Assembly: GCA_043813075.1 (NCBI GenBank)
Contig: JBDRLL010000003.1
Location: 96,001-160,000 of the forward strand
Source of the DNA: Candidatus Altiarchaeota archaeon
Lineage (GTDB): Archaea > Altiarchaeota > Altiarchaeia > IMC4 > SCGC-AAA252-I15
Length of the DNA stretch: 64,000 nt
Reading direction: 5' to 3'
A program made the translations under genes and the position numbers. Below the pieces are notes generated by a model. It was not told the origin of the DNA. It saw only the letters and a list, made by a program, of their open reading frames with translations, and did no database searches. Of this stretch, positions 28,949 through 29,223 are shown piece after piece (positions within the stretch are counted from its first letter, which is position 1; each line of letters begins with the position of its first letter).

Positions 28949-28992
28949 GGTAAATCCTTTTCTTTTGTAAAATAAGTTTCTTTCTTTTTCGT

Positions 28993-29031
28993 AAACGTTT
29001 TTCTTTCTTTCCCAAAGAAAGAAAAAGGTTT
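28993..29031. repeat. Long A/T-rich inverted repeat (possible terminator)
   Basis: TTTTTCTTTCTTT-CCC-AAAGAAAGAAAAA: perfect 13-bp arms (28998-29010 / 29014-29026), extended by AAAC/GTTT after one mismatch. Confidence 0.8.
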
Positions 29032-29112
29032 GCCGCCGACGAGACATTCAGAAGCCTTAGGCTTCTGATGCGCCGGAATCGCTCTTGCGATTCCGAGCGT
29101 TTGAACTCGCGA
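29028..29112 (-). repeat. Duplicate of the tRNA-Phe 3' end with a 55-nt double-hairpin insertion in the T-loop
   Basis: 29028-29044 = 29117-29133 and 29100-29112 = 29134-29146; insert 29045-29099 folds into two hairpins. Confidence 0.85.
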
Positions 29113-29119
29113 TGGTGTT

Positions 29120-29223
29120 TGCCGCCGACGAGATTTGAACTCGCGACACCCCGGTTTCGAAAAGCCTTTTGGACTAAGGGGCTCTCTTCAGCCGAGTGCT
29201 CTCCCAGACTGAGCTACAGCGGC
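29120..29223 (-). tRNA. tRNA-Phe(GAA) with 30-nt intron at position 37/38 (29156-29185)
   Basis: GCCGCTG acceptor, GCTC/GAGC D-stem, CTCGG-CT-GAA-G|intron|A-CCGGG, GCGAG-TTCAAAT-CTCGT T-arm, discriminator A, CCA not encoded; BHB-like fold at the junctions. Confidence 0.95.

What the first reader, a model, noticed from the sequence alone, without database searches (positions are those of the whole stretch)
29028..29223. tRNA-Phe followed by a copy of its own 3' end whose T-loop is split by a 55-nt double hairpin
Seen (minus strand): 7 nt after the intact tRNA's discriminator, TCGCGAGTTCAAA recurs. Then come CGCTCGGAATCGC-AAGA-GCGATTCCGGCG and CATCAGAAGCC-TAA-GGCTTCTGAATG, then TCTCGTCGGCGGCA-AAC resumes exactly. 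So 30 nt are duplicated identically, and the insert sits precisely at T-loop position 59/60 with no target-site duplication, no obvious BHB motif and no integrase or transposase nearby. The insert is two abutting hairpins (9-bp and 8-bp cores, each closed by a bulged 3-bp stem), forming a multi-way junction on the T-stem. Inference: options are (a) a minimal non-autonomous element that targets tRNA T-loops and regenerates the tRNA 3' end; (b) an alternative 3' half that competes for the acceptor strand and regulates maturation; (c) a non-BHB intron type. I know no named element with this architecture.
Basis: partly seen in the sequence, partly recalled or inferred. Interest (0 to 1): 0.82.

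Follow-up and report, generated by a model that had tools for sequence, protein, structure and literature searches.

The report
Mobile double hairpin splitting a spare tRNA end
Just after an intact archaeal tRNA-Phe gene lies a spare copy of the gene's last 30 bases, split in its T-loop by one copy of a small, two-hairpin repeat that occurs many times in this group of archaea and may show how extra sequences get into tRNA genes.

Summary
On the minus strand an intact tRNA-Phe(GAA) (29223-29120, with a 30-nt anticodon-loop intron) is followed by AAC+ACCA. Then comes a second copy of positions 47-59 (29112-29100), a 55-nt insert (29099-29045), and positions 60-73 plus AAC (29044-29028).

The insert ("E") is not unique. 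A covariance model finds it at 8 places in this genome and in 29 of 49 genomes of the same order (Altiarchaeota), but in 0 of 12 genomes of two other families of the class. Its two hairpins covary strongly (98.8% paired; 20 of 20 pairs with double changes) and hold almost no G·U. It folds equally on both DNA strands.

The layout "intact tRNA + short spacer + split partial copy" recurs at tRNA-Leu, tRNA-Arg and, by eye, tRNA-Asp in this genome. It also recurs at tRNA-Phe in two other genera. E also sits precisely, without target duplication, in other hairpin loops, in long introns and in a HEPN gene.

Split copies decay, and wherever I looked closely an intact gene was present. I read E as a lineage-specific mobile double-hairpin DNA element lodged in a non-functional duplicate of the tRNA 3' end. 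How the duplicate arises, and which enzyme moves E, remain unresolved. Reads did not bridge both copies.

The parts
29120..29223 (-). Intact tRNA-Phe(GAA) gene with a 30-nt intron in the anticodon loop (about 29157-29186)
   Evidence: Rfam RF00005, 50.2 bits; ARAGORN -i Phe(gaa) i(37,30); sequence
29134..29146 (-). First copy of A: tRNA positions 47-59 (end of variable loop, T-stem 5' strand, T-loop TTCAAA)
29117..29133 (-). First copy of B: positions 60-73 (T60, T-stem 3' strand, acceptor 3' strand, discriminator) plus trailer AAC
29113..29116 (-). 4-nt spacer ACCA between the intact gene with its trailer and the partial copy
29100..29112 (-). Second copy of A, identical to the first (13 of 13)
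29045..29099 (.). Element E, 55 nt: hairpin 1 at 29071-29099 (CGC, bulged T, 9-bp stem, loop AAGA) and hairpin 2 at 29045-29070 (CAT, 8-bp stem, loop TAA, bulged A, ATG). One member of a multi-copy family. Similar in shape on both strands
   Evidence: covariance model R1, 83.3 bits; covariation; folds
29028..29044 (-). Second copy of B, identical to the first (17 of 17), continuous with the downstream flank
   Evidence: in the congener G001 the plain tRNA-Phe 3' end is followed by a copy of the same palindrome that follows this second B, though that palindrome is itself a repeat
28976..29027 (-). T/A-rich palindromic repeat 'P' (CTTTTTCTTTCTTT-GGG-AAAGAAAGAAAAA...). It recurs after other tRNA genes and inside long tRNA introns of this genome, and is the first T-run after the gene
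   Evidence: blastn of the region against the genome; sequences

Best explanation
The 55-nt insert is one copy of 'E', a lineage-specific family of small mobile double-hairpin DNA elements. The sequence it splits is a non-functional partial duplicate of the tRNA-Phe 3' end (positions 47-73 plus 3 nt) lying 7 nt behind the intact, functional gene.

Shown:
- E is multi-copy and confined to one order.
- E has precise ends, no target-site duplication and no terminal repeats beyond CGC/GCG.
- E keeps two perfect Watson-Crick hairpins through many double changes.
- E looks alike on both strands.
- E lands in loops of pre-existing hairpins: T-loop, D-loop, anticodon loop and other repeats. It often follows TTCRA(A).
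- Sister copies of E sit at different tRNAs, while the flanks are always local.

Inferred: E moves as DNA (or as single-stranded DNA), using a host or unsampled enzyme. An insertion into the T-loop of a single-copy essential tRNA gene survives only if an intact 3' end is kept or regenerated. What we therefore see is 'intact gene, short filler, split copy'.

My preferred route (about 0.45) is that the duplication arises with the insertion, by break repair or template switching at the T-loop. Inverted T-loop snippets in several spacers fit this. The alternative route (about 0.3) is that partial copies pre-exist, from site-specific integration, and E colonises them as safe havens. In either case the split copy then decays.
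For: Family and distribution:
- R1 finds 13 matches (8 places) in this genome.
- It finds matches in 29 of 49 genomes of the order at E<=0.01.
- At E<=1e-6 it finds matches in 26 of the same 49, and in 0 of 12 genomes of two other families of the class.

Structure:
- 8-sequence alignment: 10 of 20 pairs show compensatory changes.
- 75-match alignment: 98.8% of 1402 cells are paired against 74.1% in shuffles (0 of 500 reach it). All 20 pairs have double changes. There are 348 double-change cells but only 7 one-sided ones. Slid controls give 30-53% paired.
- G·U makes up 10 of 1402 cells in E, against 18 of 279 stem pairs in 13 tRNA genes of the same genome.
- Both DNA strands fold equally.
- 73 of 85 places also match the model on the opposite strand.

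Precise insertion:
- In G026 a 53-nt E splits a HEPN ORF. The left flank matches HEPN profile positions 3-33 and the right flank matches 36-107.
- Empty 'ggtgtttca|tcccc' sites of repeat P exist beside filled ones.

Recurrence of the layout:
- This genome: tRNA-Leu(TAA), a tRNA read by eye as Arg(TCG) and tRNA-Asp (E-like by eye).
- tRNA-Phe in G002 and G010, which belong to other genera. Their E stems are quite different, but their A and B copies are identical within each genome.
- 24 of 43 T-loop copies have an intact T-loop plus the same 3' end (<=2 mismatches in 14) within the fetched flanks.

E moves without its flanks: the Phe and Leu copies of this genome share hairpin 1 exactly but have locus-specific flanks.

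Decay of the split copies: 8 of those 24 have 1-2 mismatches, and L049 has mismatched stems.

Coupling of duplication and E: in this genome all 4 downstream copies that include the T-stem 5' strand carry E or an E-like insert. At tRNA-Phe, the copies that include it (G000, G002, G010) all carry E.

Break-repair signature: inverted T-loop pieces (such as GGATTCGAAC) lie just upstream of E in L004/L009, L028, L033, L038 and L048.
Against: - No enzyme was found. This genome (89% complete) gives no hit for Y1 transposase, TnpB, tyrosine integrase or reverse transcriptase.
- Across the order, E does not go with Y1 transposases (9 of 29 E-positive against 8 of 20 E-negative genomes). It does not go with integrases either (19 of 29 against 11 of 20).
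- No simple transposition chemistry gives A-B-spacer-A-E-B. It is not a target-site duplication.
- In 31 of 43 T-loop copies, T54-57 can pair with the four bases before the last two of E in the BHB register. RNA-level cutting is therefore not excluded.
- T-loop-bearing partial copies without E exist (G001 tRNA-Met repeats; three in this genome). E is therefore not obligatory.
- 19 of 43 T-loop copies showed no intact partner in the fetched flanks. Only one of these was followed further: in G012 the intact gene lies on another contig.
- The sample of places is biased. The model includes 6+2 flank positions, and I fetched the best-scoring hits.
- Reads do not bridge the two copies.
Confidence: 0.6

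Rival explanations
1. Site-specific integration remnant. The partial copy is an attR-type direct repeat left by integrase-mediated integration into the tRNA 3' end. E is either the end of such an element (part of its attP) or a later passenger.
For: Partial tRNA copies at both gene ends are common here: of 34 ARAGORN tRNAs, 8 have the 3' end repeated downstream and 7 the 5' end repeated upstream. The downstream copies shown start at T60. In the congener G001, tRNA-Met is followed by a tyrosine-integrase ORF, type I restriction genes and three direct repeats of the tRNA 3' end. In G008 about 410 nt with a small Zn-ribbon-like ORF lie between tRNA-Phe and its E-bearing 3' piece. In G027 the E-bearing copies after tRNA-Met and tRNA-Ile carry each other's T-arm. 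Published models: tRNA fragments arise from integration (bioRxiv 2022.07.05.498093, passages read). Integration can add introns and scatter fragments (PMC3293823, abstract and discussion read).
Against: Here the 'element' between the repeats would be 4 nt. Spacers of a few to about 25 nt recur at many loci, and neither integrase excision nor recombination between the repeats would leave that. The integrase-linked repeats in G001 carry no E. No integrase was found in this genome, and there is no association across the order. E also occurs alone in non-tRNA sites.
Confidence: 0.2
2. RNA-level intron. E is a BHB-like intron at 59/60, and the second copy is the ancestral, intron-bearing 3' end (or an alternative 3' exon). 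It would have been displaced by an intron-less patch, making this an intermediate of intron loss or gain.
For: 59/60 is a known non-canonical intron position, and related introns at different positions of different tRNAs are known from Thermoproteales (PMC4090602, passages read). In 31 of 43 T-loop copies, TTCR pairs with the four bases before the last two of E, giving two 3-nt bulges around a 4-bp helix next to the T-stem. In this copy all four pairs are Watson-Crick. One decayed copy (L035) has TTAGAA with CTAG, which keeps the pairing. E also lies in D-loops and anticodon loops.
Against: The inner helix is missing in 0 of 43... that is, none of the 43 has it. The pairing is not enriched at non-T-loop sites (3 of 42 against 3.7 in shuffles). 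The only EndA found is a single 174-aa protein, a size that I recall goes with the strict homotetramer type. The four E-bearing tRNA copies read in full are partial or decayed and sit beside an intact gene. The near absence of G·U and the strand symmetry point to DNA, not RNA. E splits a protein gene with a 53-nt, frame-breaking insert without a BHB.
Confidence: 0.1
3. Functional cis element. The trailer A-E-B is kept because it regulates maturation, termination or stability of the tRNA, or acts as a decoy or spare part against elements that integrate into tRNA genes.
For: At this locus no T-run separates gene and copy, so they are probably co-transcribed. The layout recurs at tRNA-Phe in three genera. 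A and B are identical to the gene in 16 of 24 loci.
Against: Other loci have a T-run between gene and copy (G010, L023). Copies decay. Most tRNA-Phe loci examined in the family lack it (16 of 19 other genomes show no E-bearing copy within about 420 nt). E stems at the same locus differ completely between genera, which fits repeated recent events, not conservation.
Confidence: 0.05
4. Assembly artefact: a collapsed or chimeric join of two strain variants, one with and one without the insert.
For: Coverage in the only run found is low (about 2.5) and no contig bridges 29103-29183. Contigs of these bins often break at such loci (C35/C38 overlap by 141 nt).
Against: The same ordered layout with different spacers occurs at three other tRNAs of this genome and in independent assemblies of other genera. 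The repeats (13 and 17 nt) are shorter than usual assembly words.
Confidence: 0.02

Closest known systems
Repetitive hairpin-forming / double-hairpin elements of mitochondrial genomes (Allomyces, sponges, yeasts)
   Same: Short elements made of one or two hairpins, multi-copy and lineage-specific. They insert in intergenic DNA, introns, rRNA and sometimes coding genes. The Allomyces elements lack flanking duplications, and no enzyme is known (PMC2800124, passages read).
   Different: Those are organellar. No sequence relation was tested. They are not reported there to target tRNA T-loops or to come with a duplicated gene end.
tRNA gene fragments left by integrating elements (attL/attR direct repeats)
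   Same: [quoted passage not shown]
   Different: Here only 4 nt separate the repeats, no integrase is present, and the distal repeat is split by E.
Non-canonical archaeal tRNA introns and their 'transposition' (Thermoproteales)
   Same: Related short inserts at 59/60, 20/21 and the anticodon loop of different tRNAs, with the spread thought to happen at DNA level and the mechanism unknown (PMC4090602, passages).
   Different: Those introns sit in functional genes and carry BHB motifs. E sits in partial or decayed copies, lacks the inner helix, shows almost no G·U, and also occupies non-tRNA hairpins and an ORF.
IS200/IS605-derived hairpin MITEs (PATEs) and REP/REPIN elements
   Same: No target duplication, no long terminal repeats, hairpins with a bulged base, and a preferred short motif on one flank. 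These features of those families are recalled, not taken from a call.
   Different: No Y1 transposase in this genome and no association across the order. No E-like ends at 3 transposase loci. In G026 none of 18 hairpin copies lies within 3.9 kb of a Y1 hit. The stems vary freely between genomes.

Membership tests
Archaeal BHB tRNA intron (non-canonical, 59/60) | Interrupts a complete tRNA gene whose exons join to a full tRNA | tested here: not met
   The split copy holds only positions 47-73. The complete gene lies upstream, uninterrupted at 59/60.
Archaeal BHB tRNA intron (non-canonical, 59/60) | 4-bp helix flanked by two 3-nt bulges that carry the splice sites, with helices on both sides (hBHBh') | tested here: inconclusive
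   The central helix and both bulges are possible here (TTCA/TGAA) and in 31 of 43 T-loop copies. The inner helix is present in 0 of 43. There is no enrichment at other sites. The definition is taken from PMC4090602 (passage).
Archaeal BHB tRNA intron (non-canonical, 59/60) | Removed from the transcript by EndA and ligase | not testable with these tools
   No RNA run was listed.
IS200/IS605-type hairpin MITE (PATE) | No target-site duplication and no terminal inverted repeats; subterminal hairpins | tested here: met
   HEPN split without loss or gain; flanks; only CGC/GCG at the ends.
IS200/IS605-type hairpin MITE (PATE) | Ends match those of an autonomous element with a Y1 transposase in the same or related genomes | tested here: not met
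   0 Y1 hits in this genome. No association across 49 genomes. No R1 match better than 5 bits at 3 transposase loci. 0 of 18 hairpin copies near a Y1 hit in G026.
Classical MITE | Terminal inverted repeats plus a fixed-length target-site duplication | tested here: not met
   No duplication flanks E itself. The A/B repeat is not arranged as a target duplication.
Integration remnant (att direct repeat at a tRNA gene) | Direct repeat of the tRNA end reaching past the gene end, with the functional gene reconstituted | tested here: met
Integration remnant (att direct repeat at a tRNA gene) | Integrated element, usually with an integrase, between the repeats | tested here: not met
   4-nt spacer and no integrase in the genome. 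This feature is met only at an E-less locus of G001.
Split or permuted tRNA gene | Separate transcription unit whose leader pairs with the other half, with no intact gene for that tRNA | tested here: not met
   The intact gene lies directly upstream. For the stand-alone piece in G012, an intact tRNA-Met lies elsewhere.

The most novel reading that the evidence does not exclude
E is a DNA-level mobile hairpin element that homes to tRNA loops and, in the T-loop, happens to build most of a bulge-helix-bulge motif with its own 3' end. The 'intact gene + split spare copy' loci would then be living intermediates of how non-canonical tRNA introns (59/60, 20/21) are born. Recombination between the two A copies would put E into the working gene, where it survives if the splicing enzyme can cut it. 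This would give the long-sought arrival route of archaeal tRNA introns a concrete, testable vehicle.
Probability: 0.2. Interest if true: 0.85.

Novelty: new variant of a known kind. Interest (0 to 1): 0.62.

Why it matters
How extra sequences arrive in archaeal tRNA genes is an open question. The Thermoproteales review calls the mechanism unknown (PMC4090602, passage). [quoted passage not shown]

Here a discrete, recognisable element sits at the classical non-canonical positions, in many young copies, next to untouched genes. Filled and empty sites are available for comparison. That makes three things directly testable in one lineage: insertion chemistry, target choice (hairpin loops, TTCRA) and the step from 'insert in a spare copy' to 'intron in the gene'.

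It also has a practical side. tRNA finders miss or mis-call genes here, and contigs break at these loci.

If E is only a hairpin repeat colonising spare copies, it is still a new, well-defined family in a phylum already noted for a very high density of small repeats (PMC11602168, passage).

Tried and rejected
- Default ARAGORN on the window: 0 genes. Introns had to be allowed.
- A fuzzy-regex scan of the genome timed out and was replaced by the covariance model.
- Rfam: no family for E at this locus. Only chance miRNA-hairpin hits to the neighbouring palindrome, all far below gathering scores. Nothing at three non-tRNA host sites.
- Reads: one DNA run holds the stretch and no RNA holder was listed. 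Logan contigs do not bridge the two copies.
I checked the first 80 with R1 and found only one weak match (21.3 bits, GC 0.67), so nothing usable. The remaining 40+ were not checked.
- IS200/IS605 link: tested and not supported.
- Integrase, reverse transcriptase and TnpB in this genome: none found, in an 89%-complete bin.
- Earlier findings of this scan were not open.
- Considered and dropped:
  - E plus flanks as a simple target-site duplication: the order A-B-spacer-A-E-B does not fit.
  - cDNA of mature tRNA as donor: the copies carry genomic trailer, not CCA, and no reverse transcriptase was found.
  - K-turn or C/D-box reading of E: no such motifs by eye.
- Literature searches for a prior description found none: 'Altiarchae + tRNA + intron'; 'tRNA gene fragment/direct repeat/integration/T-loop'; 'Altiarchaeum/palindromic/repeat/hairpin'; 'tRNA gene/T-loop/miniature/insertion/archaea/partial duplication'. 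Supplements are closed, and the conserved-MITE tables of PMC11602168 may list related repeats.
Full report
**1. What is at the coordinates**

Read on the minus strand, the window holds an intact tRNA-Phe(GAA) at 29223-29120. Rfam scores it 50.2 bits. ARAGORN finds it only when introns are allowed, with a 30-nt intron at position 37.

After the discriminator come these pieces:
- AAC and ACCA;
- TCGCGAGTTCAAA (29112-29100), identical to tRNA positions 47-59;
- 55 nt (29099-29045);
- TCTCGTCGGCGGCAAAC (29044-29028), identical to positions 60-73 plus the first three trailer bases.

Each repeat occurs exactly twice in the window, against 0 expected in 100 shuffles. It folds into two abutting hairpins (RNA -33.5 kcal/mol, z -6.6). 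As DNA it folds equally well on either strand (-23.0 and -23.1 kcal/mol).

The neighbours are ordinary genes: glycosyltransferase, Band 7, bPH_2, ribosomal L35Ae and pyruvate:ferredoxin oxidoreductase subunits.

The organism is an archaeon of the Altiarchaeota. The closest relatives of its splicing endonuclease carry that name in their record titles.

**2. Is it an artefact?**

The only run that holds the stretch is DNA kept as low-depth contigs. One contig covers the downstream flank, the second B, all of the insert and 3 nt of the second A. Another covers the 5' part of the tRNA. Nothing bridges 29103-29183. Reads therefore neither confirm nor refute contiguity.

The same ordered layout recurs elsewhere in this genome and in independent assemblies of other genera (below). 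I take that as strong evidence against an artefact.

**3. The insert is a family**

A blastn of the insert found a second copy at the start of contig C35. That copy lies behind a tRNA 3' end and inside a second copy of that end. C35 overlaps the start of C38 by 141 nt, so this is tRNA-Leu(TAA).

A DNA search in 41 genomes found 6 with matches. One of them, G002 from another genus, has tRNA-Phe followed by CAGG. Then come the same 13 nt, an insert of the same shape but quite different stems, and the same 17 nt.

Eight copies aligned with 10 of 20 predicted pairs showing compensatory changes. From these I built the covariance model R1, which gave:
- 13 matches at 8 places in this genome;
- matches in 29 of 49 genomes of the order at E<=0.01, including 17 of 20 other genomes of the family;
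- at E<=1e-6, matches in 26 of the same 49 and in 0 of 12 genomes of the two other families of the class.

One genome (G022) has 49 matches counting both strands.

I fetched 60 further places, chosen from the top of the list. Re-scoring gave 158 matches over 72 sources. I reduced these by hand to 85 places, keeping the better strand at each. 73 of the 85 also match on the other strand.

**4. Structure and what it says**

I scored the pairs on 75 matches aligned to the model. The alignment is fitted to the model, and some places contribute both strands.
- 98.8% of 1402 cells are standard pairs, against 74.1% after shuffling (0 of 500 shuffles reach it).
- All 20 pairs show double changes.
- Sliding the partner by 1-3 columns drops pairing to 30-53%.
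- There are 348 double-change cells but only 7 one-sided changes.
- G·U accounts for 10 of 1402 cells. In 13 intron-less tRNA genes of this genome, 18 of 279 stem pairs are G·T.

The architecture is [CGC, one bulged base, 8-9 bp, loop][CGC, 8-9 bp, loop, one bulged base, GCG]. Its reverse complement has the same shape.

Near-perfect Watson-Crick pairing, strand symmetry and free change of stem sequence fit a hairpin that matters as DNA, or on both strands. They fit an ordinary structured RNA less well.

Within one genome the stems can be uniform. In the complete genome G026 one 9-bp stem occurs 18 times with different loops (control 0).

**5. Where E sits**

Of the 85 places:
- 43 are T-loop-like (TTCRAA|E|T...);
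- 9 are nested in a T/A-rich palindromic repeat ('P') inside long anticodon-loop introns or tRNA trailers;
- 33 are elsewhere.

The share of T-loops is inflated, because the model includes six left and two right flank positions and I fetched the best hits.

Other hosts are:
- D-loops and an anticodon loop of partial tRNA copies;
- the loop of another tRNA-linked repeat ('Q', GGCTCGCTCCGT|TCACACGCG...);
- loops of CCACCGGTC...GACCGGTGG hairpins;
- two conserved non-tRNA sites without any Rfam match;
- one protein gene.

The protein gene is in G026. A 53-nt E splits a HEPN ORF. The left flank matches HEPN profile positions 3-33 and the right flank matches 36-107, with one codon spanning the junction. 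The insertion is therefore precise, with no duplication or loss.

Empty 'ggtgtttca|tcccc' sites of P occur beside filled ones.

The common theme is insertion into the loop of an existing hairpin, often after TTCRA(A).

**6. The 'intact gene + split spare copy' layout**

In this genome it occurs at four tRNAs:
- tRNA-Phe;
- tRNA-Leu(TAA);
- a tRNA I read as Arg(TCG), which ARAGORN mis-calls SeC;
- tRNA-Asp, with an E-like insert seen only by eye.

At tRNA-Phe it occurs in G000, G002 and G010, which are three genera. A and B are identical within each genome, but the T-stems differ between G000 and G010, and the E stems and spacers all differ.

In G008, about 410 nt with a small ORF separate the gene from its E-bearing piece. 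The other 16 of the 19 other genomes examined show no E-bearing copy within about 420 nt. G001, the congener, has a plain gene followed by a copy of the same palindrome that follows the second B here.

Among the 43 T-loop copies:
- 24 have an uninterrupted T-loop plus the same 14-nt 3' end (<=2 mismatches) within the fetched flanks, mostly 88-200 nt upstream;
- 16 of those 24 are identical over the 14 nt and 8 differ at 1-2 positions.

I read four E-bearing tRNA copies in full (L027, L049, L055, L059). All are partial or decayed copies next to an intact gene.

A mirror-image version exists at 5' ends: a partial 5' copy split in the D-loop lies upstream of the intact gene. Examples are tRNA-Gly of this genome, L058, L030, and G013 tRNA-Phe. 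One tRNA (L030) has both.

More generally, 8 of 34 ARAGORN tRNAs of this genome have their last 14 nt repeated downstream within 700 nt, and 7 have their first 14 nt repeated upstream. The downstream copies shown start at T60. They are preceded either by E or by other small hairpin inserts.

**7. Mechanism**

Shown:
- E moves as a discrete unit. The Phe and Leu copies here share hairpin 1 exactly but have local flanks.
- Near-identical E variants sit at tRNA-Gly in G001 and tRNA-Phe in G002.
- E inserts precisely.
- The split tRNA pieces are not maintained.

Inferred: E moves at the DNA level, and a plain insertion into a single-copy tRNA gene is lost unless an intact end remains.

I prefer formation of the duplicate together with the insertion, for two reasons. 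First, every downstream copy that includes the T-stem 5' strand carries E or an E-like insert (4 of 4 here; the three at tRNA-Phe). Second, several spacers hold inverted T-loop snippets of the kind left by fold-back repair at a break.

The main rival is classical integration. It does operate in this genus (G001 tRNA-Met, integrase, restriction genes, three E-less repeats). It does not explain 4-nt spacers.

No enzyme emerged:
- no Y1 transposase, TnpB, integrase or reverse transcriptase in this 89%-complete bin;
- no association of E with Y1 transposases (9 of 29 against 8 of 20) or integrases (19 of 29 against 11 of 20) across the order;
- no E-like ends at three transposase loci;
- in G026 no hairpin copy within 3.9 kb of a Y1 hit.

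**8. Is it an intron?**

The definition I used is a 4-bp helix flanked by two 3-nt bulges, with 59/60 a known position (PMC4090602, passages).

In this copy TTCA (54-57) pairs with TGAA before the last two insert bases. That gives bulges AA|C and TG|T next to the T-stem. The same register works, with G·U allowed, in 31 of 43 T-loop copies. The inner helix is present in none. At non-T-loop sites the pairing is at chance (3 of 42 against 3.7).

The only EndA found is a single 174-aa protein. That this size goes with the strict homotetramer type is my recollection, not a call.

Together with the DNA-like covariation and the lack of any sole-copy tRNA carrying E among those I read, I rate the intron reading low here. 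The partial BHB does keep open the bolder idea that such elements seed T-loop introns.

**9. Comparison and novelty**

The closest analogues are:
- mitochondrial double-hairpin and other repetitive hairpin elements (PMC2800124, passages);
- tRNA fragments from integration (bioRxiv 2022.07.05.498093, passages; PMC3293823, abstract and discussion);
- Thermoproteales intron transposition (PMC4090602, passages);
- hairpin MITEs of the IS200/IS605 kind (recalled).

Candidatus Altiarchaeum is reported to have the highest density of conserved MITEs among archaea (PMC11602168, passage). Its supplementary tables, which I could not open, may list related repeats.

My four literature searches found no description of this element or layout. 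I class it as a new variant of known kinds. It is real, recurrent and well defined, but the enzyme and the origin of the duplicate are unresolved.

Noticed in passing
window 28976-29027 (minus); also G000 C6:84562-84603, C6:3061-3097, C20:74279-74334, C10:99283-99324: T/A-rich palindromic repeat 'P' (CTTTTTCTTTCTTT..AAAGAAAGAAAAA + second purine-rich arm). It recurs directly after tRNA genes and inside 70-170-nt anticodon-loop introns, and often hosts E between its arms. It has two alternative pairing partners for the pyrimidine arm.
   Followed up: partly
G000 C10 after the Arg tRNA copy; C6:3136-3305 upstream of tRNA-Asn; G012, G009, G005, G008 tRNA-Phe loci (L167, L168, L179, L178): Another tRNA-linked repeat 'Q' (GGCTCGCTCCGT-TCACACGCG-NAGCGAG...) abuts tRNA 3' ends or truncated 5' copies. 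E is inserted in its hairpin loop in L070.
   Followed up: no
G000 C6:92238-92340 (after tRNA-Pro), C10:99090-99310 (after tRNA-Ile), C27:9650-9880 (after tRNA-Val): A second two-hairpin insert family ('E2', ...TCCGAC..GTCGG-AGGAGG-TCGGAACC..GGTTCTGA-TATTCAAA) lies directly before repeated tRNA 3' ends that start at T60. tRNA-Val(TAC) has yet another single-hairpin insert in its spare T-loop.
   Followed up: partly
G000 C3:22896-23170 (outside the window): tRNA-Gly(GCC) has two partial 5' copies upstream. The nearer one (positions 1 to about 33) is split in the D-loop by an E copy (R1 17.7 bits on the opposite strand).
   Followed up: partly
L077 (G026:C1:587697-588456): A HEPN-domain ORF is split by a 53-nt E, which breaks the frame. 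The two flanks are contiguous in the HEPN profile.
   Followed up: yes
L333 (G001:C106:1-7500): An integrated element at tRNA-Met: a tyrosine-integrase ORF overlapping the tRNA 3' half, a 966-aa type I restriction R-subunit-like ORF, a specificity-subunit fragment and a methyltransferase-like ORF. It is bounded by three E-less direct repeats of the tRNA 3' end.
   Followed up: partly
L005 (G027:C68) and L067 (G027:C10): Reciprocal swap. The E-bearing copies behind tRNA-Met carry the T-arm of tRNA-Ile(GAT), and the one behind tRNA-Ile carries the T-arm of tRNA-Met. The two tRNAs share the acceptor stem.
   Followed up: no
G000 C38:1-230 and C35:1-141; many relatives' contig ends (L003, L026, L034, L045): Contigs of these bins often end at E or tRNA-copy loci. 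C38 and C35 overlap by 141 identical bases and should be joined.
   Followed up: yes
G000 whole genome: tRNA finders struggle here. The Rfam tRNA model lists 20 genes and ARAGORN with introns lists 34, including mis-calls (a 'SeC' that reads as Arg-TCG). Introns of 80-170 nt are common.
   Followed up: partly
L083 (G000 C3:54522-55046): The single 174-aa EndA has its nearest non-Altiarchaeota relatives (about 35-49% identity) in Thorarchaeota and other Asgard bins, a group reported to be rich in tRNA introns.
   Followed up: no
L032 (G018:C93:879-1741): Two identical tandem units (101 nt each) of spacer + A + E + B follow one tRNA-Val, so the unit can be amplified in tandem.
   Followed up: no
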